Positions 1 through 59,987 of a DNA stretch of 64,000 nucleotides are shown here, in pieces. Within the stretch, counting starts at the first letter, position 1; each line of letters begins with the position of its first letter. Made by a program: the position numbers and the translations under genes. Location of the stretch: contig CAYLKS010000005.1 of NCBI GenBank assembly GCA_964384205.1, positions 3,567 to 67,566 of the forward strand, given 5' to 3'. Source of the DNA: an uncultured bacterium. GTDB lineage: Bacteria; JAGOEH01; CAYLKS01. The notes under the pieces are model-generated. The model was not told the DNA's origin. It did no database searches and saw only the letters and a program-made list of their open reading frames with translations.

Positions 1-1446
1 GCAAGAATTTTTTCTAAAGCACTCAACTGCATAAACGGCCCTACTGTAACACCTTGCAATAAATGTGATAGCTGTACTCAAATTAACGAAGGCAGATCTT
101 TTGATGTATTAGAAATCGATGGCGCATCTAACAGAGGTATAGACGAAATAAGAGCTCTTAAAGAAAATATAAATTATTCACCAAGCTCTGGCAAATATAA
201 AATATATATTATCGATGAAGTTCATATGCTAACTGAACAAGCATTCAATGCTCTTTTGAAAACATTAGAAGAACCTCCACCTCAAGTTATTTTTATATTG
301 GCTACTACTGAACCAAATAAAATACCAATTACTATTCTTTCACGATGTCAGAGATATGACTTCAAAAGAGTCTCAATAAATGAAATATCTCAGCAATTAA
401 AAAATATTGCTAATAATGAAAATATTAATATTGACGATGCTTCTATAAAACTAATTGCAAGAGCAGCAGACGGCAGTGTAAGAGATGCTGAATCTATTTT
501 CGATCAAGTTATATCTTTTTGCAACAATAATGTAAAAGCAAGTGATGTGGAAGAAATTCTCGGCATTACCGGGAATCATTTCTTTGTAAAACTATTCTCA
601 CTATATTTTGAAAATAATCTTTACGAAGCACTAAAAACAATTGATGAATACTTATATTCTGGCAAAGATATTAAAGAATTTTTAAACGGGTTCTCATTAT
701 TTTTAAGAAATTTAATTATTTTAAAACTAAATGAAACTCCAGATAATATTTTTGGCATAGCAGAAGACGAAAAAGATGAAATAATAAATATCGCTAAAAA
801 TTTCTCTTTTATCGACCTATTCAGAATCATGAATATCTTTTCTAAATATGAAAAAATAATCCGTTATTCTCCAAATAGTTTAATACAACTGGAAATGTTC
901 ATAATAAAATTATTTACTATAAACAAACTTGAAGATATAGAAAATATTATTCTAAAATTAAATAATTACCAGGATCAATATACACCAACTCAAGAAAACA
1001 AAAAAAAAACATTTGAGATAAAGAATATTAACAATCAAAATAAATTTTGGCCCGAAATATTAGATATAATAAAGAAAAAAGATGCTGTTTTATATGCCCA
1101 TATGCAAGAAAGCATAATAACTGATTTTACCAATAATAAATTAAAAATTAAAATCCCTTATGCTAATGAAAGAACAAAAAAAATTATTGAAAAAAATAAA
1201 TTTATAATAAATGAAACTCTATCTTCATATCTAAATGAAAAAATCGCAATAGAAATAGAATATGATATAATAGATCACAATGAAATCTTGGAAAAAATAG
1301 AACAAGATAAGAAAAAAATAGCAATGTTAAGTCAAAATGATGGAAATAATTTGCATAAAATTTATAAAGAATATCCTATAATACAATATGCTGTCGAAAA
1401 ATTTAACGGATATTTAATAAAAAATAACTCAAAAAAAGAGAGGTAA
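1..1446 (+). CDS. dnaX: DNA polymerase III subunit gamma/tau (5' end lies outside the window)
   Basis: Frame 1 is open from base 1 (ARIFSKALNCINGPTVTPCNKCDSCTQ...IYIIDEVHMLTEQAFNALLKTLEEPPP...ILATTEPNKIPITILSRCQRYDF), giving the clamp-loader AAA+ box and sensor motifs. It sits in the conserved dnaX-ybaB-recR arrangement. The ORF-track Met at 226 is internal. Confidence 0.9.
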   Translation, partial: ARIFSKALNCINGPTVTPCNKCDSCTQINEGRSFDVLEIDGASNRGIDEIRALKENINYSPSSGKYKIYIIDEVHMLTEQAFNALLKTLEEPPPQVIFILATTEPNKIPITILSRCQRYDFKRVSINEISQQLKNIANNENINIDDASIKLIARAADGSVRDAESIFDQVISFCNNNVKASDVEEILGITGNHFFVKLFSLYFENNLYEALKTIDEYLYSGKDIKEFLNGFSLFLRNLIILKLNETPDNIFGIAEDEKDEIINIAKNFSFIDLFRIMNIFSKYEKIIRYSPNSLIQLEMFIIKLFTINKLEDIENIILKLNNYQDQYTPTQENKKKTFEIKNINNQNKFWPEILDIIKKKDAVLYAHMQESIITDFTNNKLKIKIPYANERTKKIIEKNKFIINETLSSYLNEKIAIEIEYDIIDHNEILEKIEQDKKKIAMLSQNDGNNLHKIYKEYPIIQYAVEKFNGYLIKNNSKKER

Positions 1447-1449
1447 TAT

Positions 1450-1761
1450 ATGTCTAAAAAATTAAATTCTCTTCTAAAAGAAGCTAAAAAAATGCAAAAA
1501 ATGATGGCAGAAATGCAAGAGCAATTAGCAAAACAAACATTCGAAGGACAGGCTGGCGGCGGAGTTGTAAAAGCTAAAGTTAATGGAGAAAAAAAATTAT
1601 TAGAAATAAAAATATCGCCCGATGTGGTAGATCCGGATGATGTAGAAATGCTGGAAGATTTAATTTTATCTGCTATCAATCAAGCAATGGATGAAGCAGA
1701 AAAAGCAAGTAATAACCAATTGTCAGGATTAACAGGTAACCTAAAAATTCCTGGTTTCTAA
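1450..1761 (+). CDS. ybaB: YbaB/EbfC nucleoid-associated protein
   Basis: 103 aa, with QKMMAEMQEQLAKQTFEGQAGGGVVKAKVNG typical of the YbaB family. It lies between dnaX and recR. Confidence 0.9.
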   Translation: MSKKLNSLLKEAKKMQKMMAEMQEQLAKQTFEGQAGGGVVKAKVNGEKKLLEIKISPDVVDPDDVEMLEDLILSAINQAMDEAEKASNNQLSGLTGNLKIPGF

Positions 1762-1783
1762 TAAAAAGGTTTTTAGTAAAAAA

Positions 1784-2392
1784 ATGAAAATTCCAGAATC
1801 TATTGAATCAATTATAAATGAATTTATTAAATTTCCAGGTATCGGACATAAAACTGCCGAAAGGTTAGCTTTTTATCTAATTTTTCAGCCAGAAGAATTT
1901 ACCACTGAATTTATAAAAAATATAGAATTCTATAGAAAACAAATAAAATATTGTTCAATATGTGGCAATATAGATGACACAGACCCATGCAGTATATGTA
2001 GTTCAAACCATAGAGATAATTATACAATCTGTGTGGTAGAAACGCCCAGAGATCTTTTTGCAATAGAAAATGCCAATATATATAATGGGCTATATCATGT
2101 ACTTGGTGGCGCTATCTCACCTATTGATGGTATAACGCCTGAAAAATTAAATTTTGATAAATTATTAAAAAGAATAAAACCTCCTGTAAACGAAATTATA
2201 ATTGCCACAAATTCAAATATCCCTGGGGAAATGACTGCTCTTTATATAAAAAAACTACTGGCAGAATACGATATAAAAATTACACGAATTGCTAAAGGAA
2301 TCCCCTTTGGCTCTGATCTTGAATACTCAGATAAAATAACAATTTCTAATGCTTTTACAGGAAGAACAGAAATAAAAAATGAACCTTCCTAA
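1784..2392 (+). CDS. recR: recombination protein RecR
   Basis: 202 aa with a helix-hairpin-helix, a C4 zinc finger (CSICGNIDDTDPCSICSS) and a Toprim region. Conserved synteny. Confidence 0.92.
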   Translation: MKIPESIESIINEFIKFPGIGHKTAERLAFYLIFQPEEFTTEFIKNIEFYRKQIKYCSICGNIDDTDPCSICSSNHRDNYTICVVETPRDLFAIENANIYNGLYHVLGGAISPIDGITPEKLNFDKLLKRIKPPVNEIIIATNSNIPGEMTALYIKKLLAEYDIKITRIAKGIPFGSDLEYSDKITISNAFTGRTEIKNEPS

Positions 2393-2945: not shown

Positions 2946-3403
2946 TGAAATTGATTGATAAAATCTCAATTTTATTATCAACAGGATTATTTTCTGGATA
3001 TTTCCCTCTCTTTCCAGGAACATTTGCCAGCTTCCTAACATGCATTGCTTTATACTACATATTGCCAGTAAGTACAGACGAGTACTTTCTTTATCTATTA
3101 ATACTCTTTTTTGTAGGGGTCTATACATCTACAGTAGCAGAAAAAACACTGGGACATGATGCAAAAAAAATAGTTATTGATGAAATATTTGGTATGTCTG
3201 TAGCGATTTTATATGTACCCATCACATTAACTAATTTAATTATTGCTTTTATTCTATTTAGACTATTTGATATTTTCAAACCATTCCCTATTAATGCAAG
3301 CCAAAAACTAAAGCAAGGCTGGGGAGTTATGGTTGATGATTTAATTGCAGGAATATACGCAATGGCAATTTTAAATGCTTATATTTTATTTTTTACAAAA
3401 TAA
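2945..3403 (+). CDS. pgpA: phosphatidylglycerophosphatase A
   Basis: 152-aa membrane protein with the PgpA-like MVDDLIAGIYA motif. Its start overlaps the pgsA stop (ATGA). Confidence 0.8.
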   Translation: MKLIDKISILLSTGLFSGYFPLFPGTFASFLTCIALYYILPVSTDEYFLYLLILFFVGVYTSTVAEKTLGHDAKKIVIDEIFGMSVAILYVPITLTNLIIAFILFRLFDIFKPFPINASQKLKQGWGVMVDDLIAGIYAMAILNAYILFFTK

Positions 3404-14185: not shown

Positions 14186-15928
14186 CTAAAAATTAATTCC
14201 AACATTAATATTAAGAACCCAATAATCATAACCGTAATAATGTTGCTTGCCTAACATAAAATCAGCTACCATAAAACTACTTTTTTTCATTATGTTAACG
14301 CCATACGAATATTCAGTAGCAGTATTAATTATTTGAAATTCAGTATCCACAAATCTAAAATATCTTGTATTACGAATATTATAATAAGCTAATACATTAT
14401 AACCAAATATATTAGCATTTGAATTTATTTCAAAAAAATTTCTTTTTCTCAACTTATTATTATAAAAATAAAATTTATCATCATAATTAGCTAAGTAGTA
14501 GCCATTATCACGCCTATTGAAATTATTTCTAATAGATATACTAAAACTATCTGAAAATTTAACATTAAAACCTAACACATTATCAAAAATTAATATTGCT
14601 GTATTTTGTTCTGGAACATATTTATAATAAATATAATCCGAAGCTAAATAAATACTATCTATTAACGTCACATTATCATTTAGTTTATACTGAAAATCAG
14701 ATGAAAGTGAATATCTGTTATTAAAATAATTATTTATAGAAGCATATTTGGATATATAAACAAATTTTTTCCTTAAGTTTTTAACTTCAATTATTGAACT
14801 AAATTTTTCAAAACTAAGTGATAACTTTAAAAATAAAAAATCTCTTAACTGATCATTATCATTAAAATTAAGTTCACTCAAATAATGAAAGTAATCCTTT
14901 TCAAGATGTTTTGCAAACTCAACCTTATAAAAATTGTATTCCCAGAATAAAGCCAGTTTTAAATTATAATTTTTATATATAAAATTATCAAAATCAAAAA
15001 AATATTTAAAATTACTCCTTTGAAATGATTCTTCAACAAAAAACTTTAAATTTCTATTTAATGCGTATTCTATTTTAAAATTATGAAAAAAAATCTTTTG
15101 AATTCTCTTATTTATTGTAGCACTATGATTTTTATAAAAATCATTAGAAACAGAATCCAGTACAATTTTACCATTTAAAGATAAACCATAAAATTCATTT
15201 AACGTAAATTCTGTGAAAAAATTATAACTAAATTCATCTTTATTCTGAGTAAAATCTTGTTTTGGGATTTGTCTTATAGCCTTTGAAAAATTAAAATAAA
15301 CTTTTGTTGCCAAATTTTTCAATGAAAAAAAATAAAAATTTTCACTGGATACTTCTTTATAAGAAGTTTGTTCCTGGCCATTTATTATAATATTGTTATG
15401 CGATTCCAAATTATTATAATTTAAATAAACATTTAATGAATCATATAATCCATCATTATTAATTAAACTATCCAGATTTTGATGTATTACCTTATATTTT
15501 TCATCTTTATAACCAAATCTATTTTTAAAAGAAAGATATTTAAAAAAAGAATGCTCAATTATAGTAGAATAATTATAAGATGTTGATTTTATTTTAGAAT
15601 AAAATGTTTTATCTAAATTATTTGAATATTGGAAATCTAACGAAATGCCATCTAATATTTTTCTATTAAAAATATAATCTGTTATCTTTTGATATTTTTT
15701 TAAAGAATAATTATAAATCTGATTAGAATTAAATTTAAAAAAACCAAAATCAATTTTATTAATTAAACTTTCATTATCTCGCAATTTTGAATAATTAGAA
15801 ATTGCTTTATTTTGAGCTATGGAAAAAGAGAAAATAAATATAAGCAAAAAAAAACTATTTATATAATTTTTTTCTAAAAATCGTATTAATTTTAATATCT
15901 TTGCTATATGGTAAAAATATATAATCAT
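14186..15928 (-). CDS. hypothetical N/Y/F/K-rich protein, possible outer-membrane beta-barrel (true start uncertain)
   Basis: 580 aa. A hydrophobic signal-like segment ([19 protein letters not shown]) appears only after about 25 aa, so the real start is probably downstream of 15928 (for example the TTG encoding FLLIF). Alternating aromatic and polar residues and a C-terminal ...GINF are typical of an OM barrel. Nothing else is recognisable. Confidence 0.4.
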   Translation of the reverse strand: MIIYFYHIAKILKLIRFLEKNYINSFFLLIFIFSFSIAQNKAISNYSKLRDNESLINKIDFGFFKFNSNQIYNYSLKKYQKITDYIFNRKILDGISLDFQYSNNLDKTFYSKIKSTSYNYSTIIEHSFFKYLSFKNRFGYKDEKYKVIHQNLDSLINNDGLYDSLNVYLNYNNLESHNNIIINGQEQTSYKEVSSENFYFFSLKNLATKVYFNFSKAIRQIPKQDFTQNKDEFSYNFFTEFTLNEFYGLSLNGKIVLDSVSNDFYKNHSATINKRIQKIFFHNFKIEYALNRNLKFFVEESFQRSNFKYFFDFDNFIYKNYNLKLALFWEYNFYKVEFAKHLEKDYFHYLSELNFNDNDQLRDFLFLKLSLSFEKFSSIIEVKNLRKKFVYISKYASINNYFNNRYSLSSDFQYKLNDNVTLIDSIYLASDYIYYKYVPEQNTAILIFDNVLGFNVKFSDSFSISIRNNFNRRDNGYYLANYDDKFYFYNNKLRKRNFFEINSNANIFGYNVLAYYNIRNTRYFRFVDTEFQIINTATEYSYGVNIMKKSSFMVADFMLGKQHYYGYDYWVLNINVGINF

Positions 15929-17842: not shown

Positions 17843-19147
17843 TTAGCCCTCCTTTTTCCTCACTATTAATGTCATCCCATTAATATTAATAATTTCTACC
17901 ATATCTCCTGCCTCATATATATCATTATTCTCTGAAATTGCATTCCAATATTCACCGTGGATATATACACGCCCGCCCTTATCTGTAACCCGATCAACTA
18001 CTTTAGCAAATTCGCCTATCATACCCTCTTTACCACATTTCTTTTTATTTTTTTGCGCTTTAATCGCTAAATACACTAACAGCAAAAAAAATAATGCTGT
18101 AATTCCCACTCCAATTATTATCACAGGTAAAGATATTTTAATAAATGATAACTCAGTGTCTATCAAAAAAAAAGAACCCAAAAACATAGAAATAATCCCT
18201 CCTATAAATAGTAAACCATGGGTATTTACCTTAACTTCAAGTATAAATAATAAAACAGCAAATAATATTAATATTATTCCTGCTATATTTATTGGTAAAG
18301 TATGGAAAGAATATAATGCAATAACAAGAGAAATCACCCCTACAATACCGGGCAAAATAGAGCCAGGATTGGATAATTCAAATATCAAACCATACATGCC
18401 CAATAACATAAAAATATATGCTATATTAGGATCGCTTATCAATTTTAAAAAAGCAAGCCACCAATCAATCTCAAAAAACACCTTCTCTGGATTTAATAAT
18501 TCCAATTTACAAATCTTACCATTAACTTCTAATTCTCTATTATTCAAAGCTATTATAATAGAATCCAAATCATCTGTTATTTGATCAATAACATTTAAAG
18601 ACAAAGCCTCTTTTTCAGTTAATGTTTCCGATTTTCTGACAGCACTAACAAGCCATTTTTCATTTCTATTCCTTTTCTCAGCAATATTTTTCATAAAAGC
18701 AATAGCATCATTTAATATTTTCTCAGACATAACATTACTTGAATCTAATTTCATATTATTACCAATACTTACAGGATGAGCAGCTCCAAGATGAGTTCCT
18801 TCACACATAACTGCCCAATTCGAGGCCGCAGTTATAAACACACCAGCAGAGGCCGCTCTTGCTCCAGCAGGTGTTATATACACACTTATAGGTATATCAG
18901 AACTTAAAAATAGCTGCACTATTCTCCTGGTAGATTCTAATAAACCACCTGGAGTATCAAGTTTAATTATCAATAAATCTATTTTATCAATTTTACATTT
19001 ATTAATTGCTTTTTCAAAATATCTATAGGTAATTGGACCTATTGGACCATCCCAATTTGCTATCATAACTTTTGAAGAATAAGACAAAGACAATAATAGG
19101 TGCAAAAAAAACAATATTCTACTTAATACTCTCATATATTTCTTCAA
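17843..19147 (-). CDS. NfeD-family membrane-bound ClpP-class serine protease
   Basis: 434 aa with an N-terminal ClpP-like domain ([18 protein letters not shown]...ASAGVFI), multiple TM segments and a C-terminal OB-fold region. This is the classical NfeD-stomatin pairing. Confidence 0.8.
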
Positions 19148-20773: not shown

Positions 20774-22108
20774 ATGAAAGGAGATCTTATGGCTAAAAAA
20801 AAATTTCCAATGCTCTTCTGGATTGGCAATATTATTGAAGTATTGGAAAGATTCGCTTATTATGGACTATATTTAGGATTTGGCATTTATGCAACAACTT
20901 CAATTGCAAAAAATGGGTTAGGATGGACGAAAGCTGAACTTGGAGTCGTACAAACTATATTTTTATTCCTATCTTATATCATACCTCTACTTTCAGGTAT
21001 TCTGGCAGATAGATATGGCTTCAAAAAAATGTTACTTTTTTCATATTTGCTATATCTCCCTGGATTTTTATTATTAATTCTCACAAAAGAATATTTTTTA
21101 GTATTACTAATAATGATATTAATTGCAGTTGCCGCTGGGTTTTTCAAGCCTCTAATAGCAGGAACAGTAAGACTAACAACTGATGAAACAAATCGAACAC
21201 TCGGTTTTGGGATATTCTATTTAATGGTAAATGTAGGCGCATTTTTTGGTCCAATGACTGCAGGTGCATTGAGAATAAAATCATGGAATTATGCTTTTTT
21301 AGCATCTGCAATTAGTGTAATTCTTATGATAGTAATTACAATACTATGGTATAAAGACCCTATAACTATAGATAAATCAAAAAGAATACCGTTAACTCAA
21401 ACATTTAAAGAAATTATGCCATTTCTAAAGGACCCTAAAATATTACTATTTATTCTCCTTTTCGGAATATTTATTGAAATTCCATTCTGGTCATTCTTTA
21501 ATTTAGTTACAATGTATATAGACCAGTATGTACGCACAGATCTACTATATAATTCATTTATTAATTTCTTCAACAGTATAGGTCTTGAGTCTTTTGGAAA
21601 ATCATTTATAGGATTATTTAGTTCTGTAAATGCCGAAGGGCAACACCATATTGCAGGTGAGACATTAGGGCATACAGCTCTATATATTATTTTATTTCAA
21701 TTATTTGTTACTAAATCAACTGAAAAAATAAGAAGTATCCCAACTATAGCTATTGGAATTGGCGTAATGATATTGGGTTGCATCGGTATTGCTAATGCTA
21801 CCGGCAATTATCCTGGCTTAATATTTTTAGGAATAATCTTATTTGCTATAGGGGAAATGTCATGCATGCCAAGATTTGAACAGTATCTTATATCAATGTT
21901 ACCACCAGAAAAAACAGGATTAGGTGGTGGATTACTTAGGATACCTGTTGCTATTGGTGCTTTTAGCGGAGTAACTATAACTTCAATTTACGGAATATTT
22001 GAAAAAAATAATCATCCGCAATATATCTGGTATGTAATTGGGCTAATTTTATTAATAGGATTTATTCTCTTATTGCTATATGATAAATATTATAAAACAA
22101 AAGGATAA
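20774..22108 (+). CDS. proton-dependent oligopeptide transporter (POT/PTR2 family, DtpT-like)
   Basis: 444-aa polytopic membrane protein with the POT signature ERFAYYGLYLGFGIY near the N-terminus. Confidence 0.8.
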   Translation: MKGDLMAKKKFPMLFWIGNIIEVLERFAYYGLYLGFGIYATTSIAKNGLGWTKAELGVVQTIFLFLSYIIPLLSGILADRYGFKKMLLFSYLLYLPGFLLLILTKEYFLVLLIMILIAVAAGFFKPLIAGTVRLTTDETNRTLGFGIFYLMVNVGAFFGPMTAGALRIKSWNYAFLASAISVILMIVITILWYKDPITIDKSKRIPLTQTFKEIMPFLKDPKILLFILLFGIFIEIPFWSFFNLVTMYIDQYVRTDLLYNSFINFFNSIGLESFGKSFIGLFSSVNAEGQHHIAGETLGHTALYIILFQLFVTKSTEKIRSIPTIAIGIGVMILGCIGIANATGNYPGLIFLGIILFAIGEMSCMPRFEQYLISMLPPEKTGLGGGLLRIPVAIGAFSGVTITSIYGIFEKNNHPQYIWYVIGLILLIGFILLLLYDKYYKTKG

Positions 22109-26973: not shown

Positions 26974-26983
26974 ATTATTCAAT

Positions 26984-27067
26984 GCCGAAGTGGTGGAACT
27001 GGTAGACACGCTATCTTGAGGGGGTAGTAGGCGACTGCCTGTGCGGGTTCGAGTCCCGCCTTCGGCA
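26984..27067 (+). tRNA. tRNA-Leu (anticodon GAG)
   Basis: 84-nt cloverleaf with acceptor GCCGAAG/CUUCGGC, a D-arm, anticodon stem CTATC/GGTAG with loop TTGAGGG, a long variable arm and a GGTTCGAGTCC T-loop. CCA is not encoded. Confidence 0.85.
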
Positions 27068-27071
27068 ATTA

Positions 27072-28612: not shown

Positions 28613-29905
28613 CTACCCGGGAAATAATTTTCTCTTCAATCTATCGAATCGATCCCATTTTATAAATCTTGTCTCTCTAACTGTTCTGTATAAAATAAAA
28701 ATCCCATAAATTAAAAATATAATATTTGAAAACCACATTGCAAGCCATGGTGGAACCACCCCTTTATCACCAAGCTCTTCACCTACAAGTAAACTCCCCC
28801 ACGATAGTACAAAAAATATCATACTAATTATAATAGAGGGTCCCACTCCCCCTCTCTTCGATCTTACTCCCAATGGAACTCCAAGTAAAACAAATATAAT
28901 ACAAGCAAATGCAATCGCAAATTTTTTATGAATTTCTACTTTATATTGATTAATTTGATATTCCAAATTTTTTTTAATGTTCACCTCATTTTTCAATCTA
29001 TAATATGTTGTCATAGTAATAGGTTTTCTTCCCATCAACAAAATTGATAAATCATTTCTAATATATTTCTTACACCTATTTTTAGTATTTTTAATTCTCA
29101 TTTTTAAAGTATCAATATAACTATTCATCATTGATATGTTCATCTCCCTCTGCCCTCGATTAAAAACAAAATCCCTGGTACTATCAGAACTCAAATTATA
29201 CTTATATACAAGTTCATTAAACTTTATAGAAGAATATCCCCCGTCATTTTTTTTATTAAATTTATAAATTTCACCGTAGTTTAATTTTAATATCATAATA
29301 TCCTTATTAGCATCATAAGCAATTATACCATCTTTGGAAGTTATAATATCAGGAGTTCTACCCTTGCTATAATCATAAATGACAACATTCTTCATATAAT
29401 TTTTTTTTCTATCAAGATTATCACAAAATAACACGAAACTATCACCAATTTTATTAAATTTGCCTTCTTCCAAAGCTATAGTGGGAGTAGAAGCCTTAAT
29501 TCTAAATTCTAAATTTTTTAAATAATAATTCGCATCTGGCAATATATTATTATTAAAATAAAAAATTATTCCTGTATTTATCAGTCCAAATAATAAAGAA
29601 GGAATTAAAAGAGAATAAAGGCTTATTCCACTTGCTTTTATAGCCATTATTTCATTGTCTTCAGTCAATTTTCCATAAGTCATAATTGTAGCAAGCAATA
29701 CACTCATAGGAATAGAAAGAGCAATAATATGCGCAAGACTTAAATATACCATCTTAAATATTACAGAATATTCAACCCCTTTTTTCAAAATCATATCTGT
29801 AATTAAAATAAATTCATTAACAACCATAATACCAGTTATTAAAAAAATAGAAAAAAAGTATGGCGGTAATAATTCCTTAAAAATATATCTATATAAAATT
29901 TTCAT
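28613..29905 (-). CDS. LptF/LptG family lipopolysaccharide export permease
   Basis: 430 aa, YjgP/YjgQ family: N-terminal TM segments, a periplasmic beta-jellyroll and C-terminal TM segments. Confidence 0.8.
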   Translation of the reverse strand: MKILYRYIFKELLPPYFFSIFLITGIMVVNEFILITDMILKKGVEYSVIFKMVYLSLAHIIALSIPMSVLLATIMTYGKLTEDNEIMAIKASGISLYSLLIPSLLFGLINTGIIFYFNNNILPDANYYLKNLEFRIKASTPTIALEEGKFNKIGDSFVLFCDNLDRKKNYMKNVVIYDYSKGRTPDIITSKDGIIAYDANKDIMILKLNYGEIYKFNKKNDGGYSSIKFNELVYKYNLSSDSTRDFVFNRGQREMNISMMNSYIDTLKMRIKNTKNRCKKYIRNDLSILLMGRKPITMTTYYRLKNEVNIKKNLEYQINQYKVEIHKKFAIAFACIIFVLLGVPLGVRSKRGGVGPSIIISMIFFVLSWGSLLVGEELGDKGVVPPWLAMWFSNIIFLIYGIFILYRTVRETRFIKWDRFDRLKRKLFPG

Positions 29906-34433: not shown

Positions 34434-34590
34434 AAAAACCCCGCTTTGCCGTGTAGTTTGGAGATTTGAACCTTGCGGTTCAATTAGAGACAATCCAATG
34501 AAGCAGACAAGCCACTTCAAAAGATTGTCTCAAAATTTTGAGTGTTGGCTCAAATTTTCCCGACTATCACGAGCAAAGCAGGGTTTATTT
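34434..34590 (-). ncRNA. candidate structured small RNA (a 15-bp closing helix enclosing three hairpins); strand and class uncertain; syntenic with 6S RNA downstream of zapA
   Basis: CCCCGCTTTGCCGTG (34439-34453) pairs with CACGAGCAAAGCAGGG (34568-34583). Internal hairpins are GAGACAATC/GATTGTCTC, TTGAACC-ttgc-GGTTCAA and CTCAAA/TTTGAG. On the minus strand the helix is followed by UUUUUU. The region lies in the 228-nt gap between the zapA stop and the rny start. Confidence 0.35.
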
Positions 34591-34848: not shown

Positions 34849-34868
34849 TTCGTGATAGCCGTTTTTTT

Positions 34869-35135
34869 TTAATCTTCTAATAAATCTAACATTCTCTTAA
34901 TACGAACTGCAATCTCTTCTTCTTTATTCTTCAACTCACTAAAACTTTTTTCAATATCTTTCAACCTTTTATTTTCATCTTCCAAATCATTTAATTTATA
35001 TTTTAATTGCTTAATTTCATTCTCTAATTGCTCTTTAATTAATTCTAAATTCTTTTTATCTTCTTCTAATATCTTTACTCGCTGAGATAAAAAATTTATC
35101 TTACCTTCTAACTTATCTAAAATCTCAAGTTCCAC
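34869..35135 (-). CDS. coiled-coil protein (possible ZapB-like division factor)
   Basis: 88 aa, entirely heptad-repeat coiled coil (LEEDKKNLELIKEQLENEIKQLKYKLNDLEDENKRLK), lying between pheT and zapA. Confidence 0.4.
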   Translation of the reverse strand: MELEILDKLEGKINFLSQRVKILEEDKKNLELIKEQLENEIKQLKYKLNDLEDENKRLKDIEKSFSELKNKEEEIAVRIKRMLDLLED

Positions 35136-43807: not shown

Positions 43808-45061
43808 ATGAAAAATATATATCACAATCTCCTGTTTTATAAATTCGCACTCTATGGATTTTTAAAAAATCAAAAATACTTTGAACCATTTATAATTATA
43901 TTTCTCAAAACATATAATATCTCTTTCACTCAAATAGGTATTTTATATGCAATAAAAGAAATAACAACTAACTTTTTAGAAATTCCTTCTGGTATTTTTG
44001 CTGATGCTTTCGGCAGAAAAAAAGCAATGCTTATATCATTTTCATCATATATAATTTCATTTATCATATTCTATTCTTTTCATGATTTCTATTTTTTTTC
44101 AATAGCAATGCTCTTTTTTGGTTTTGGTGAAGCCTTCAGATCTGGAACTCATAAAGCAATGATTTATTCATATTTAAAATATAACAATCTTTCTCAATAT
44201 AAAGTGGAATTCTACGGGCACACAAGAGCCTCATCACAAATCGGCAGCGCAATATCTGTCTTAATTTCTGCCTATATTATCATTATATCCCACAATATAG
44301 CAAAAATATTCTTCTTTTCAATAATTCCATATATCATTGCATTTATTTTAATTCTCTCATATCCAAATTATTTAGATTATGAAATTAAAAACAAAAACAA
44401 AAGACTAACAACAACATTTAAAGACATTAAAAAAAACTTGAAAATCTGGTACAATATTAAAATTTTACTAAATATCTCATTATATTCAGCATATTTCAAA
44501 GCAATAAAAGATTACATCCAAGCAATCATAAAACAATTTAGTCCATTTATCATTGCTTTGCCTTTTATAAAAAAAGAACATAAAACTACTATTGTCATTG
44601 CATTTGTATATTTTGTATTCTATATATTATCATCTTTTGCTTCTGCAAATTCAAAAAAAGCTCTCGATAAAATAAAATCCAAATCAACACTACTAAATAT
44701 ATCTCTTATTTTTGCAATTGTAAGTGCATTATTGATTGCTCTATTTTATAAATTTAAATTCTTATCCATTATTATCATTATATATTTATTTATATTTCTA
44801 ATTGAGAATATCAGAAAACCAATTGCAATTGCATACATAAATGAAAAAATTAATACCGATATTTTCGCATCAATCTTATCCTTACAAAACAACCTAAGAA
44901 CAATATTAACAGCTTTAATTTCAATAATTTTTGGATTTCTTATTGATACATTATCAATTTACTGGGCATTTTTTATAATAGGCATATTGTTTATTCTCAT
45001 TTACCCTCTAATATCTATAAAAGAAAAAAACAGCGGTACGGGGAATCGAACCCCGGCTTGA
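43808..45061 (+). CDS. MFS transporter
   Basis: 417 aa with about 12 predicted TM segments. The C-terminal ~10 codons overlap the tRNA-Glu gene on the opposite strand. Confidence 0.7.
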   Translation: MKNIYHNLLFYKFALYGFLKNQKYFEPFIIIFLKTYNISFTQIGILYAIKEITTNFLEIPSGIFADAFGRKKAMLISFSSYIISFIIFYSFHDFYFFSIAMLFFGFGEAFRSGTHKAMIYSYLKYNNLSQYKVEFYGHTRASSQIGSAISVLISAYIIIISHNIAKIFFFSIIPYIIAFILILSYPNYLDYEIKNKNKRLTTTFKDIKKNLKIWYNIKILLNISLYSAYFKAIKDYIQAIIKQFSPFIIALPFIKKEHKTTIVIAFVYFVFYILSSFASANSKKALDKIKSKSTLLNISLIFAIVSALLIALFYKFKFLSIIIIIYLFIFLIENIRKPIAIAYINEKINTDIFASILSLQNNLRTILTALISIIFGFLIDTLSIYWAFFIIGILFILIYPLISIKEKNSGTGNRTPA

Positions 45062-45101
45062 TGGCTGAGAACCATCTGTCCTAGCCACTAGACGATACCG
45101 C
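45032..45101 (-). tRNA. tRNA-Glu (anticodon CTC)
   Basis: Minus-strand cloverleaf with acceptor GCGGTAT/GTACCGC, D-arm TCTAGTGGCTAGGAC, anticodon stem GATGG/CCATC with loop TTCTCAG, and T-arm GGGGTTCGATTCCCC. CCA is not encoded. Confidence 0.8.
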
Positions 45102-45142
45102 CGTAAAATTTTGCATAATTATATTAAATAATATTAATAAAG

Positions 45143-53967: not shown

Positions 53968-56900
53968 TAACCTCTTTAGTAAAATAAAATTCTATATAAA
54001 TAATTTATCAATAAGAAAAAAAATATTCCTGGCTTTTTCTATTTCTATTTTAATAGTAATTATTATGTTTGAACTTTTGTTATATTCATTTATAACTAAT
54101 ATAATAACAAAACATATAAAAAAACAATTAGATGAAACTTCATATTTATTATTAAATTCTGTCAGAACAAGTATAGAGCTAAGCATAGGAAACTATTTAA
54201 AAGCTTACAGTAAAATGCTTACTTCGAATTCTCAAAAAGAATCTGATACAGATATAATAAGATATTTTATATACGATACTCTGGCAATCAAAATCAAAAA
54301 TCCAAAAAAATGGGATAACATATTTCTAAAATCAATAAAAGATAGTATAAATTCAAATAAATCTTTCTTTAAAAAACAAATCAAGAAAAATTATTTCTAT
54401 TTTTATGTAACTAAAAAAGAAAATCAATATATCATCCTATACATGAATACTAAAAATTGTTTAAAAATGATCAATTTTCAAGAGTTAAAAAACTTAATAA
54501 AATCAATCAAATTGGGAAAAACAGGCTATCCTTACGTTATAAATAGCAAAGGAACTCTTATAATACATCCTAAATTAGAAGGTGAAAATATATATAATGC
54601 TGTCGATGAAAATGGTTTTATGTTTGTAAAAGAAATATGCACAAAAAAAGATGGAGAAATTGTTTATAAATGGAAAAATCCAGGTGAACAATATAAAAGA
54701 AAAAAAATTGCTATATTTCATTACCTTCCAGAATTAGACTGGATAATAGCATCTTCTGGATATTTTAACGAATTTTATTCTCCTGTAGAAAAAATATCAA
54801 TAATAATGATTATATTTCTTTTAGTGAATTTTTTGGTCATTTTTATAATTTCATTGATATTAAGCAACTACTTTTCCAGACCAATAAAAACACTCATTCA
54901 AACATTACAAAAAACGCATGATGAAGATTTTAATCAATACTGCAACATTGAATCTCAGGATGAATTCGGACAACTGGCAAATTATTTTAATATATTTATA
55001 GAATCAATTTCAAATTTTACAAAAAATTTAAAAAAATCTGAAGCTCAATATAGAACTATATTTGAAAATTCTCTGGTAGGTATATTTCAGATAACTCTTG
55101 ATGGTAAATTCAATATTATCAATAACGCTTTTGTAAAAATATTCGGATACAACTCAATTGATGATTTCAAAAAACATGTAAAAACATTTAAAGAATTACT
55201 AAAAAATAAAGAAGATTTCTATAAATTATTAGAAGAAATAAAACAAGAAAAACAGATATCCGGACAGGAACTTATACTAAAAAGTAAAAGTAATACAGAA
55301 ATCTATATTGAAATATATTGTAGCCTGACAAAATACTTCGATACTTATGAAATTATAGAAGGCTTTATACATGATATTACTGTAACTAAAATAGCTTTTA
55401 AGGCATTGGAAGAAAGTGAAAGAGTATTCAAAATTATATTTCAATCATCTCCTATCGGTATGGTATTAACAGATGAAAATTTCAATATCCAAACATTTAA
55501 TAGCACATTCACAAAAATTTTTAAATTTAAAAATATACATAATATTAAGAAAATAAATATTAAAAAACTACTCAAAATAAATGATATAAAAAATGAATTA
55601 ACAAGTATAACTAAAGAAGTCACTTTAGATAACGAGTTATCAGGCAACAATGAAACTCTTTATTTAGATATAATAATACAACCTTTATTCGATTATAAAC
55701 TCAAAAAAAATAATACCTATTTAATCATAATAAATGATATTACTCCAAAAAAATTAATCGAAAAAAAAGAACAAGAGGTACAAGCCTTAAAATATGAATC
55801 TAAGGCAAAAAGTCAATTCATTTCCACAGTAAGCCACGAACTACGAACTCCTCTAAACACAATACTGGGATCATTATATATAATAGAAAAAACAAATTTA
55901 GACCATAAACAATTACTTCTATTTAAAAGAATAGAAGTAGCGGCCAAATTACTACTTGGAATTATCAATGATATTTTAGAATTATATAAAATAGATTATT
56001 CCTCAATAGAATTGTCAAATATCGACTTTTCTCTTATCGATATACTAAATAATATAAGAACATTTTTCTATGATGAATTAAACAAAAAAAAATTAAATTT
56101 TATAATATCAATCAAAGAAAATACTCCTGTATATTTCAAAGGAGACCCTTTAAGAATTCAACAAATTCTTATTAATCTTATAAAAAATTCTATAAAATTC
56201 ACAGAAAAAGGCTCTATAAAAATAGAAATCTATGAAAGAAAAAACTACCAGCAGGATAATAATAAGCATAACATAATATTTAAAGTTATAGACTCAGGAA
56301 AAGGTATAAGTAAAGATATGATAAAAAATATATTTGATGAATTCTCAAGAGAAAACAATTATATAGAAGGTCTTGGATTAGGCCTATCTATTGTAAAAAA
56401 ATTAATAGACATAATGAATGGAAATATAGAAATAACATCACAACCGAATATAGGAACAGAAGTCAAATTTACTATTCCATTAGAAGAATCCTATAAAACA
56501 GCAATTACCATCGAAAAAATAAAAAAAGAATTATCACAACTAACTATGATAGTCTTAAGTGATAATATAGAAAGTTTTCAATTCTTTAAGAAGATAAAAA
56601 AACAATATAAAAATGAAAATATTATAATAGCCAATAATGAAACAGATTTTATAAAAATTTTAAATAAAAATATTGATCCTGATATTGTAATCATAGACAT
56701 TAATAAGCATATAATAAAACAAAACAAAATTTTAAATAATATAGAAAAACTATCTTCATCTAAAAAGCCATTTATTATCTCTATAGGAAATATGGGAGAT
56801 CAACTTATTCTAAATACAATCAAAACATCATATATAGACGCTATAATTTCCCGACCAATTAATGAATTAACACTTTTTAATATATTCTTATTTCATTTAG

Positions 56901-59707: not shown

Positions 59708-59782
59708 GGTGGGTATAGCTCAGCTGGTTAGAGTGCCAGATTGTGGCTCTGGTGGTCATGGGTTCAAATCCCATTACCCACC
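59708..59782 (+). tRNA. tRNA-His (anticodon GTG) with an encoded G-1
   Basis: G-1 followed by acceptor GTGGGTA/TACCCAC and discriminator C; anticodon stem CCAGA/TCTGG with loop TTGTGGC; T-arm ATGGGTTCAAATCCCAT. A T-run follows the gene. Confidence 0.85.
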
Positions 59783-59987
59783 CTTTTTTTATTTATAAAA
59801 TTCCCTGCTAAAATTTTTTAATAGATTAAAAATAAAAAAGTATTGATAAAATATTTATTTATTCATTTTAAAATGTATCCAGCTATGATTAAATATTTCT
59901 CAAAATATTGATATTTAACAATAAAATTATTTTCATAACCACCTCATTACATAAAATTTATTTATAAAAAAACACTTATTTTAATAC

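What the first reader, a model, noticed from the sequence alone, without database searches (positions are those of the whole stretch)
1000..1009. A10 slippery run inside dnaX with immediate stops in both alternative frames (candidate gamma-subunit production site)
dnaX contains AAAAAAAAAA (1000-1009) in the region downstream of the clamp-loader AAA+ core (protein ...TQENKKKTFEIK...). After a -1 shift the frame reads KKKHLR-stop, and after a +1 shift it reads KKNI-stop. So any ribosomal or transcriptional slippage on the A-run yields a truncated product ending within a few codons. This matches how E. coli (A AAA AAG frameshift) and Thermus (A9 transcriptional slippage) make the shorter gamma subunit from dnaX.
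Basis: partly seen in the sequence, partly recalled or inferred. Interest (0 to 1): 0.55.

Follow-up and report, generated by a model that had tools for sequence, protein, structure and literature searches.

The report
Poly-A slippage site in dnaX
A run of ten A's sits in the flexible linker of the DNA-replication clamp-loader gene dnaX, so occasional miscounting of A's should yield a shorter second protein alongside the full-length one; this trick is already known from Thermus and, as shown here, recurs in many other bacteria, so it is a good example of a known kind.

Summary
A10 at 1000-1009 is the only homopolymer of 10 or more bases in the 64 kb window. It lies in dnaX (codons K390-K392/T393 of the 537-aa protein), with stops 2 and 3 codons away in the two other frames.

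In this 28% GC genome the nearby stops are weak evidence on their own (P about 0.1). Other evidence supports the interpretation:
- The run sits in the centre of the only disordered inter-domain segment (residues 385-395). This lies after domain III and before the tau-specific C-terminal domain.
- The genome avoids long sense-strand A runs (A>=9: 4 observed against 11.3 expected), and the dnaX linker run is the one A>=10 that survives.
- In 82 other dnaX loci, 13 of 15 A>=9 runs fall in this same linker and none in the N-terminal 91 kb (P about 1e-19). This includes genomes of 59-71% GC.

The two nearest relatives (56-59% identity) lack the run. There is no E. coli-type Shine-Dalgarno or hairpin cassette.

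Best reading: a Thermus-type transcriptional slippage site that yields tau (62 kDa) plus gamma-like products of about 45 kDa. This is a new member of a known kind. No expression data were available.

The parts
1..1446 (+). dnaX, the last 481 codons plus the stop. The first 56 codons lie upstream of the window. The full product is tau, 537 aa, 62.2 kDa.
   Evidence: ORF and translation. NCBIfam PRK05563 and TIGR02397. An identical 537-aa protein P0001 is encoded on a 95 kb contig. Molecular weight.
532..948 (+). DnaX domain III (Pfam PF12169, window aa 178-316), the last domain shared by gamma and tau.
   Evidence: E=2e-17, profile positions 1-139 of 143.
937..978 (+). Last helix before the linker (full-length residues 369-382).
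   Evidence: AlphaFold model, DSSP helix H369-382.
985..1017 (+). Disordered inter-domain linker (full-length residues 385-395), the only internal segment with pLDDT below 50.
1000..1009 (+). The A10 slippery run (AAA AAA AAA A, encoding K390-K392 and the first base of T393). It is the proposed site of RNA-polymerase slippage.
   Evidence: It is the only homopolymer of 10 or more in the window. Equivalent runs occur in orthologues.
1002..1008 (+). In-phase A_AAA_AAA heptamer, a possible minor site of unstimulated -1 ribosomal frameshifting that would give the same ...KKKNI product.
   Evidence: heptamer scan. No stimulatory elements were found.
1014..1016 (+). TGA stop in the ribosomal -1 frame. 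It is read from mRNAs with A11 or A8, giving ...ENKKKNI (394 aa, 45.1 kDa).
1019..1021 (+). TAA stop in the ribosomal +1 frame. It is read from mRNAs with A9 or A12, giving ...ENKKK(K)HLR (395-396 aa, about 45.4 kDa).
1027..1404 (+). Tau-specific C-terminal domain (full-length residues 399-524), which every slippage product would lack.
   Evidence: The AlphaFold model shows a folded domain, helix H399-416 through H515-524. W406 and L424 are nearly invariant in 105 homologues. Full-length alignment to homologues carrying PF20964 DnaX_C. The direct Pfam match is only weak (E=0.1).
1450..2392 (+). ybaB (1450-1761) and recR (1784-2392), the conserved dnaX-ybaB-recR context.

Best explanation
The A10 tract is a Thermus-type transcriptional-slippage site inside a single-ORF dnaX.

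Proposed mechanism: RNA polymerase realigns the nascent rA:dT hybrid on the ten-base run and makes a population of mRNAs with A9, A10, A11, A12 and so on. Messages with A10 (or A13) encode full-length tau (537 aa, 62 kDa). Tau carries the C-terminal domain that tethers the polymerase. Messages with A11 or A8 terminate at TGA 1014-1016. Messages with A9 or A12 terminate at TAA 1019-1021. These give gamma-like proteins of 393-396 aa (about 45 kDa) that keep clamp-loader domains I-III and lack the whole C-terminal domain. Unstimulated -1 ribosomal slippage on the in-phase A_AAA_AAA heptamer could add a little of the same ...KKKNI product.

What is shown: the run, the two stops, their position in the disordered linker, genome-wide avoidance of such runs, and recurrence of the same arrangement in many other dnaX genes.

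What is inferred: that this organism's RNA polymerase slips here at a useful rate, and that the short product is used as a gamma subunit.
For: 1. Anatomy. A10 lies in frame, with stops 2 and 3 codons away in the two other frames.

2. Position. The run starts 18 aa after the end of Pfam domain III. It is centred in the only internal low-confidence segment, 385-395, between helix 369-382 and the C-terminal domain 399-524. W406 of that domain is nearly invariant.

3. The genome selects against such runs, with a threshold at about 9 bases.
- Synonymous-codon shuffles expect 11.3 sense-strand A>=9 runs against 4 seen (0 of 500 shuffles as low), and 5.1 A>=10 runs against 1 seen (P=0.016). A>=7 runs are not depleted.
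- Only 3 of 13 KKK triplets are all-AAA, against 7.4 expected (P=0.015).
- Within dnaX, only 3 of the 50 Lys codons outside the run are AAG, and two of them interrupt the other two KKK triplets.

4. Comparative evidence.
- In 82 unselected dnaX loci, all 15 A>=9 runs lie after domain III. Thirteen are in the same linker (15.9 kb), none in 90.9 kb of N-terminal coding sequence, and 9 A-or-T runs occur in 365 kb of flanks. Poisson P is about 8e-20.
- Codon positions 389-394 in L004, L025, L033 and L040 nearly coincide with codon 390 here.
- The runs occur even at 59-71% GC and use AAA against the gene's AAG preference.
- Off-frame stops at these orthologous sites are closer than at random codons of the same genes. 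Per-site P ranges from 0.018 to 0.35, and my hand-computed Fisher combination is about 3e-5.
- All 7 homologues predicted from their linker peptide carry A9-A11. 44 of 104 homologues have a linker peptide that an A>=9 run could encode.

5. Literature.
- Thermus thermophilus dnaX makes gamma by slippage on A9 with nearby stops in both other frames (PMC1088944, PMC5009743).
- A10 runs occur in two-ORF dnaX genes of Chlorobi, Flavobacteria and others (PMC3711429 and its Fig. S3).
- Bacterial RNA polymerases slip on runs of 9 or more A or T (PMC6260861).
Against: - The two closest relatives (59% and 56% identity) have no run. The homologous spot in L083 reads GAA AAT AAA CCG. The run is therefore derived in this lineage, and its age cannot be judged because no closer relative exists in the databases.
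- In a 28% GC genome where 83% of Lys codons are AAA (94% within dnaX), the peptide NKKKT gives A10 in 57% of synonymous shuffles.
- Nearby off-frame stops are common here (10% of codons).
- Five other coding runs of exactly nine (three A9, two T9) are tolerated in the window.
- Baranov et al. (PMC1088944) caution that some AT-rich organisms may have polymerases that slip less.
- There are no transcript or protein data.
Confidence: 0.7

Rival explanations
1. The run is a neutral by-product of AT-rich composition. A lysine-rich stretch in a fast-evolving disordered linker happens to be encoded by AAA codons. Any truncated DnaX made by slippage is tolerated waste and not a used gamma subunit.
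For: - The run is absent from the two nearest relatives.
- Given the peptide, A10 arises in 57% of synonymous shuffles.
- Off-frame stops within 3 codons occur at 10% of codons.
- Given exactly one surviving A>=10 site, the dnaX site would be that site with probability about 0.57/5.1 = 11% (derived).
- Five runs of nine exist in other genes.
Against: - The genome purges A>=9 runs elsewhere.
- The same gene breaks its other two KKK triplets with the rare AAG codon.
- The run sits exactly at the linker where A9-A11 runs are about 66-fold enriched across other dnaX genes, including GC-rich ones where chance is excluded.
- tau is thought to be essential (10.1101/2022.11.10.516041), so a wasteful slippery tract in it should be selected against rather than retained.
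Confidence: 0.2
2. The short product is made mainly by -1 ribosomal frameshifting on the in-phase A_AAA_AAA heptamer (1002-1008), as in E. coli dnaX, and not by RNA-polymerase slippage.
For: - An in-phase X_XXY_YYZ heptamer is present, and the -1 frame stops after two codons.
- Poly-A sites can act at either the transcription or the translation level (PMC3711429).
Against: - There is no Shine-Dalgarno-like element at the E. coli spacing upstream.
- There is no downstream stem-loop: minimum free energy is -2.8 kcal/mol, z = +1.19, and 182 of 200 shuffles fold at least as well.
- A_AAA_AAA is reported to be much less shift-prone than A_AAA_AAG in E. coli (PMC5009743).
- Close stops in BOTH other frames, and run lengths and phases that vary among orthologues (phases 0, 1 and 2), fit slippage that produces both insertions and deletions. 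They do not fit a phase-dependent ribosomal shift.
Confidence: 0.07
3. The run is an artefact or a DNA-level variant. Either the homopolymer length was mis-assembled, or the tract is a phase-variable switch that changes by replication slippage.
For: Homopolymers are error-prone in some sequencing chemistries and are hypermutable (PMC1088944). The protein was seen on only two contigs, of which one was shown and the other listed as a similar place, so I have no clearly independent assembly.
Against: - With A10 the frame stays open for 144 further codons. These fold into a confident, conserved C-terminal domain, so the length is A10 modulo 3.
- The contig name format (k141_) suggests a short-read MEGAHIT assembly. 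This is my inference.
- A heritable frameshift would remove the tau C-terminal domain, which is thought to be essential (10.1101/2022.11.10.516041). An on/off switch would therefore be lethal.
Confidence: 0.03

Closest known systems
Thermus thermophilus dnaX transcriptional slippage (Larsen et al. 2000, as described in PMC1088944 and PMC5009743)
   Same: Both have a single ORF that encodes tau and a sense-strand poly-A run (A9 in Thermus, A10 here). Both have stop codons close by in both non-zero frames, so every non-3n slippage product is a truncated gamma. Neither needs a Shine-Dalgarno or hairpin stimulator.
   Different: [quoted passage not shown] Here it is at 73% (codon 390 of 537), directly in the domain III to C-domain linker.
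- Host GC content is very different, about 28% here, so chance is harder to exclude.
- The Thermus case is experimentally proven and this one is not.
Two-ORF dnaX genes with A10 (Antonov et al. 2013, PMC3711429: Chlorobium, Flavobacterium, Cytophaga, Coraliomargarita and others)
   Same: Both have an A10 run at the gamma/tau junction of dnaX followed within a few codons by a stop. The lineages are FCB-type, which fits this window's gene content (SusC-like TonB receptor, LptF/G).
   Different: In those genes the zero frame stops just after the run, so gamma is the standard product and tau needs slippage. Here the zero frame runs on to tau and slippage gives gamma.
Escherichia coli dnaX programmed -1 ribosomal frameshift
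   Same: The outcome is the same: a gamma subunit lacking tau's C-terminal domains, made from one gene at a lysine-codon slippery site followed by an immediate stop.
   Different: The E. coli case needs A_AAA_AAG plus an upstream Shine-Dalgarno sequence and a downstream stem-loop (PMC3711429 Fig. 1; PMC5009743). None of the three is present here.
Caulobacter crescentus DnaX processing by ClpXP
   Same: It produces gamma-like forms lacking the C-terminus.
   Different: It is post-translational proteolysis and involves no slippery sequence (10.1101/2022.11.10.516041).

Membership tests
dnaX poly-A transcriptional-slippage site (Thermus type, single ORF) | Homopolymeric A (or T) run of 9 or more bases in the sense strand of dnaX | tested here: met
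   A10 at 1000-1009.
dnaX poly-A transcriptional-slippage site (Thermus type, single ORF) | The zero frame continues through the run to encode full-length tau | tested here: met
   The ORF is open to 1446. The downstream 144 codons form a conserved, confidently folded C-terminal domain.
dnaX poly-A transcriptional-slippage site (Thermus type, single ORF) | Stop codons shortly downstream in both alternative frames | tested here: met
   TGA at 1014-1016 and TAA at 1019-1021. The background probability of this in the window is 0.10.
dnaX poly-A transcriptional-slippage site (Thermus type, single ORF) | The run lies after clamp-loader domain III and before the tau-specific C-terminal domain | tested here: met
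   Pfam domain III ends 18 aa upstream. The run is centred in the disordered linker 385-395 of the AlphaFold model.
dnaX poly-A transcriptional-slippage site (Thermus type, single ORF) | Conservation of the run among relatives | tested here: inconclusive
   The run is absent in the two nearest relatives (56-59% identity). It is present in the same linker in 12 of 82 distant orthologues and in 7 of 7 peptide-predicted homologues. No closer relatives exist in the databases.
dnaX poly-A transcriptional-slippage site (Thermus type, single ORF) | mRNA length heterogeneity at the run, and two protein products | not testable with these tools
   This needs RNA-seq or cDNA amplicons and protein analysis.
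E. coli-type dnaX -1 programmed ribosomal frameshift cassette | In-phase A_AAA_AAG heptamer | tested here: not met
   The in-phase heptamer is A_AAA_AAA, and no AAG is present.
E. coli-type dnaX -1 programmed ribosomal frameshift cassette | Shine-Dalgarno-like stimulator about 10 nt upstream | tested here: not met
   The sequence upstream is ACACCAACTCAAGAAAAC. The nearest AGGA is about 26 nt away.
E. coli-type dnaX -1 programmed ribosomal frameshift cassette | Stable stem-loop a few nt downstream | tested here: not met
   Region 1010-1090 folds at -2.8 kcal/mol, against a shuffle mean of -5.5 (z = +1.19).
Two-ORF dnaX (tau requires slippage; Antonov 2013) | Zero-frame stop directly after the poly-A run, with the tau C-terminal region in another frame | tested here: not met
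   The ORF is single and uninterrupted.

The most novel reading that the evidence does not exclude
Poly-A-mediated gamma production may be far more common than the literature records. That record has one proven case (Thermus) plus 17 two-ORF genes.

In this sample about 15% of unselected dnaX loci carry an in-frame A9-A11 run in the domain III to C-domain linker. Up to about 40% of the best homologues of this protein have a linker peptide that such a run could encode. The lineages include FCB-group bacteria, Planctomycetota, Leptospira and Desulfobacterota.

The run's exact position wanders between codons 376 and 435. Its absence in this window's nearest relatives would then mean the device is repeatedly lost and re-invented. 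On that view the window's A10 is a recent, independent re-creation in an AT-rich lineage.
Probability: 0.6. Interest if true: 0.45.

Novelty: new member of a known kind. Interest (0 to 1): 0.3.

Why it matters
Why bacteria make both tau and gamma from dnaX is still unsettled after 30 years (10.1101/2022.11.10.516041). Each independent origin of a gamma-making device argues that the short form is useful.

This locus adds a single-ORF poly-A example from an uncultured, very AT-rich, sparsely sampled lineage. The side survey shows that such single-ORF sites are common and under-catalogued, because searches based on disrupted ORFs cannot see them (a point made in PMC4066793).

In practice, genome annotators should expect two products from this gene.

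It does not reveal a new mechanism.

Tried and rejected
- Closer relatives. I looked for them to test conservation. The 5.8-billion-protein search returned only the identical protein and two relatives at 56-59% identity. The genome-contig scan was saturated by the generic Walker-B pattern YIIDEVHM and gave only 33-47% identity hits.
- E. coli-type stimulators. No downstream hairpin was found and no Shine-Dalgarno sequence upstream. A 5-bp inverted repeat brackets the run (CTCAA 989-993 and TTGAG 1013-1017), but the 151-nt fold is no better than shuffles (z = -0.26).
- Off-frame stops as evidence. They are too common in this genome (10%) to carry weight alone.
- C-terminal domain identity. The direct Pfam match to DnaX_C is only E=0.1, and a PDB sequence search gave nothing meaningful. 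Assignment therefore rests on the alignment with homologues and the AlphaFold domain boundary.
- Alternative signals in the nearest relatives. No in-phase X_XXY_YYZ heptamer was found in the linkers of L083 or L084.
- Literature. The Larsen et al. 2000 paper itself is not held, so its content is cited second-hand.
- Rfam and tRNA scans found nothing bearing on the site, and no tRNA-Lys gene lies in the window.

Full report
**What is there.**
Window 1-1446 (+ strand, frame 1) is the 3' part of dnaX. NCBIfam PRK05563 matches at E=4e-123 and TIGR02397 dnaX_nterm at E=2e-111. Pfam finds the AAA+ module, the lid and domain III. The gene is followed by ybaB and recR. The window cuts off the first 56 codons. 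The identical full-length protein (P0001, 537 aa) lies on a 95-kb metagenomic contig, and the window starts at base 3169 of locus L081.

The sequence at 997-1021 is AAC AAA AAA AAA ACA TTT GAG ATA A, so A10 occupies 1000-1009 exactly as reported. It encodes K390-K392 and the first base of T393.
- In the ribosomal -1 frame (equal to one extra A in the mRNA) the reading is KKK-N-I-TGA, with the stop at 1014-1016.
- In the +1 frame (equal to one A fewer) the reading is KKK-H-L-R-TAA, with the stop at 1019-1021.
- The predicted products are tau at 62.2 kDa and truncated forms of 393-396 aa at 45.0-45.5 kDa.

**Is it more than chance within this window?**
The window is 28% GC. The A10 is the only homopolymer of 10 or more bases on either strand. 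A simple composition model would still allow one or two such runs (my estimate).

The nearby off-frame stops are weak evidence. At random codons of the window's genes the median distance to a stop is 5-6 codons, and 10% of codons have stops within 3 codons in both off-frames.

The informative test is codon choice. I shuffled synonymous codons among the 52 ORFs.
- Sense-strand A>=7 runs are not depleted (105 observed, 94.6 expected).
- A>=8 runs are mildly depleted (27 observed, 35.9 expected).
- A>=9 runs are strongly depleted (4 observed, 11.3 expected; 0 of 500 shuffles as low).
- A>=10 runs are depleted (1 observed, 5.1 expected; P=0.016).

A depletion that sets in at about 9 bases matches the length at which bacterial RNA polymerases begin to slip efficiently (PMC1088944; PMC6260861).

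Other codon-level observations point the same way.
- Only 3 of 13 KKK triplets are written AAA AAA AAA, against 7.4 expected (P=0.015).
- Inside dnaX, 47 of the 50 lysine codons outside the run are AAA. Two of the three AAG codons sit in the other two KKK triplets, breaking what would otherwise be A9 or longer runs.
- The linker KKK is left unbroken and is extended by the ACA codon to ten A's.

Caveats apply.
- Given the peptide NKKKT, A10 arises in 57% of shuffles.
- If exactly one A>=10 site were to survive at random, it would be this one about 11% of the time.
- Three A9 and two T9 coding runs are tolerated elsewhere in the window.

**Position in the protein.**
Pfam domain III covers window aa 178-316 (full-length 234-372). 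An AlphaFold model built on 105 homologues has mean pLDDT 89. It shows a final helix at 369-382, then the only internal segment with pLDDT below 50 at residues 385-395, then a folded C-terminal domain from helix 399-416 to 515-524. The run's codons (390-393) are in the middle of that disordered segment.

W406 and L424 of the C-terminal domain are nearly invariant among homologues. Homologues that align over 99% of the query carry Pfam DnaX_C. The direct Pfam match of this C-terminus is only E=0.1. The run is therefore after, not inside, domain III, and every frameshifted product lacks the entire tau-specific domain.

**Relatives.**
The lineage is poorly sampled. The only proteins above 51% identity are P0002 (59%, genome GC 43%) and P0003 (56%, GC 46%). 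Both have the same dnaX-ybaB-recR-pgsA-pgpA order. Neither has an A run in the linker. At the homologous spot L083 reads TCA GAA AAT AAA CCG against CAA GAA AAC AAA AAA AAA ACA in the window. Strictly, then, the run is not conserved in the nearest orthologues.

The wider picture is different. I examined 82 dnaX loci fetched without regard to this feature (33-47% identity, many phyla).
- All 15 A>=9 runs lie downstream of domain III.
- Thirteen runs, in 12 genes, lie in the same linker.
- Two lie at codon 514.
- None lies in the 90.9 kb of N-terminal coding sequence.
- Density in the linker is 0.82 per kb, against 0.012 per kb per strand in 365 kb of flanking DNA (Poisson P about 8e-20).

Carriers include Desulfobacteraceae (A10, codon 394, the same KKKT peptide), Ignavibacteria (A10 at codons 391 and 392; A9 at 405) and Fibrobacteria (A11, codon 389). 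They also include Bacteroidota (A9 at 376, 379 and 424), Leptospira (two A9 runs) and Planctomycetota (A9 or A10 at 401, 406 and 418), among them genomes of 59% and 71% GC.

In the GC-rich genes the run uses AAA although the rest of the gene prefers AAG (1 of 7 and 5 of 19 Lys codons are AAA). Both off-frames stop soon after the run in every case. They stop sooner than at random codons of the same genes, with per-site P of 0.018-0.35. My hand-computed Fisher combination is about 3e-5.

At the protein level, 44 of the 104 best homologues have a linker peptide that an A>=9 run could encode (KKK, or [QEK]KK followed by a codon that begins with A). This is 11 times denser than in the rest of the protein. 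I fetched the DNA of seven of them, and all seven have A9-A11 at codons 376-414. The phase of the run relative to the reading frame varies (0, 1 or 2). That fits a nucleotide-level device and not a codon-phase-dependent ribosomal site.

**Mechanism.**
The arrangement is the one described for Thermus thermophilus dnaX: an A9 tract, a single tau ORF and stops close by in both other frames. There, transcripts with non-3n numbers of extra A's give gamma in about a 1:1 ratio with tau (PMC1088944; PMC5009743). Antonov et al. found A10 tracts at the same junction in 'two-ORF' dnaX genes of Chlorobi, Flavobacteria, Cytophaga and Coraliomargarita (PMC3711429; Fig. S3).

The E. coli cassette is not present here.
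- The heptamer is A_AAA_AAA, not A_AAA_AAG.
- There is no Shine-Dalgarno-like sequence at the right distance.
- The 81 nt downstream fold at -2.8 kcal/mol, worse than shuffled sequence (z = +1.19).

I therefore assign the site to the transcriptional-slippage type, with at most a minor ribosomal contribution.

Not shown: that this organism's polymerase slips here, what the gamma:tau ratio is, or that the short product is used.

**Rivals.**
- A neutral AT-rich lysine run in a fast-evolving linker remains possible (about 0.2). It explains the absence in the nearest relatives. It fits poorly with the genome's purging of such runs, with the AAG interruptions elsewhere in the same gene, and with the strong site-specific recurrence in other phyla.
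- Ribosomal frameshifting as the main route is about 0.07. It lacks stimulators and does not explain stops in both frames.
- Mis-assembly or phase variation is about 0.03. It is unlikely because the A10 frame opens onto a conserved folded domain, and because a heritable loss of tau's C-terminus should be lethal.

**Verdict.**
- The site is Thermus-type, not E. coli-type.
- The product is about 45 kDa.
- The run is not conserved in the nearest relatives but recurs widely elsewhere.

This is a new member of a known kind. Interest is modest (0.3). A specialist would not be surprised. The side result is worth noting: single-ORF poly-A dnaX genes appear common across several phyla and are missed by disrupted-ORF searches (a limitation noted in PMC4066793).

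Noticed in passing
L007 (codon 514 of 554) and L026 (codon 514 of 551): Two dnaX genes, one from Trichlorobacter and one from a delta-proteobacterial MAG, carry A10 runs far downstream, about 40 codons before the stop, again with nearby off-frame stops. Slippage there would trim only the extreme C-terminus and would not give a classical gamma. The significance is unknown.
   Followed up: no
L024 (Leptospira biflexa MAG), dnaX codons 403 and 435: Two separate A9 runs lie in the same linker, each followed by close stops in both other frames. This may give two sizes of short product.
   Followed up: no
window 20795-20803 (+), 29400-29408 (- strand gene), 56084-56092 (+): These are the other three sense-strand A9 runs inside ORFs. 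One is at codon 8 of an MFS transporter, possibly upstream of the true start. One is at codon 166 of an LptF/LptG permease. One is at codon 709 of a 1324-aa hybrid sensor kinase, between the HisKA and HATPase_c domains.
   Followed up: partly
window 15846-15854 and 18165-18173 (genes on the - strand): Two sense-strand T9 runs lie in ORFs: codon 25 of an unannotated 580-aa protein and codon 325 of an NfeD-family protein. Unlike A runs, sense-strand T runs are not depleted relative to synonymous shuffles.
   Followed up: partly
window 989-993 and 1013-1017: A 5-bp inverted repeat (CTCAA and TTGAG) brackets the A10 run and overlaps the -1-frame TGA. The predicted fold is no more stable than shuffled sequence, so it is probably chance.
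   Followed up: yes
window 34434-34587 (-): A 6S (SsrS) RNA gene at 62 bits (gathering score 46), next to an intergenic T9 run at 34862-34870. There are also tRNA-Leu(GAG) at 26983-27068, tRNA-Glu(CTC) at 45030-45103 and tRNA-His(GTG) at 59709-59783.
   Followed up: no
L084 (P0003), dnaX codons about 380-505: The second-nearest relative has a 144-residue Pro/Ser/Ala-rich linker where the window protein has 39 residues. It also has ATC AAA AAG at codons 375-377, the position where other homologues carry LLKKK A10 runs. No off-frame stop analysis was done there.
   Followed up: no
whole window: The organism is an uncultured, sparsely sampled lineage. Its DnaX has no relative above 59% identity among 5.8 billion proteins. 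Genome GC is 28%, against 43-46% in its two nearest relatives. Gene content (SusC-like TonB receptor with a CarboxypepD_reg domain, LptF/G, sulfatase) suggests a Gram-negative organism, possibly of the FCB group.
   Followed up: partly
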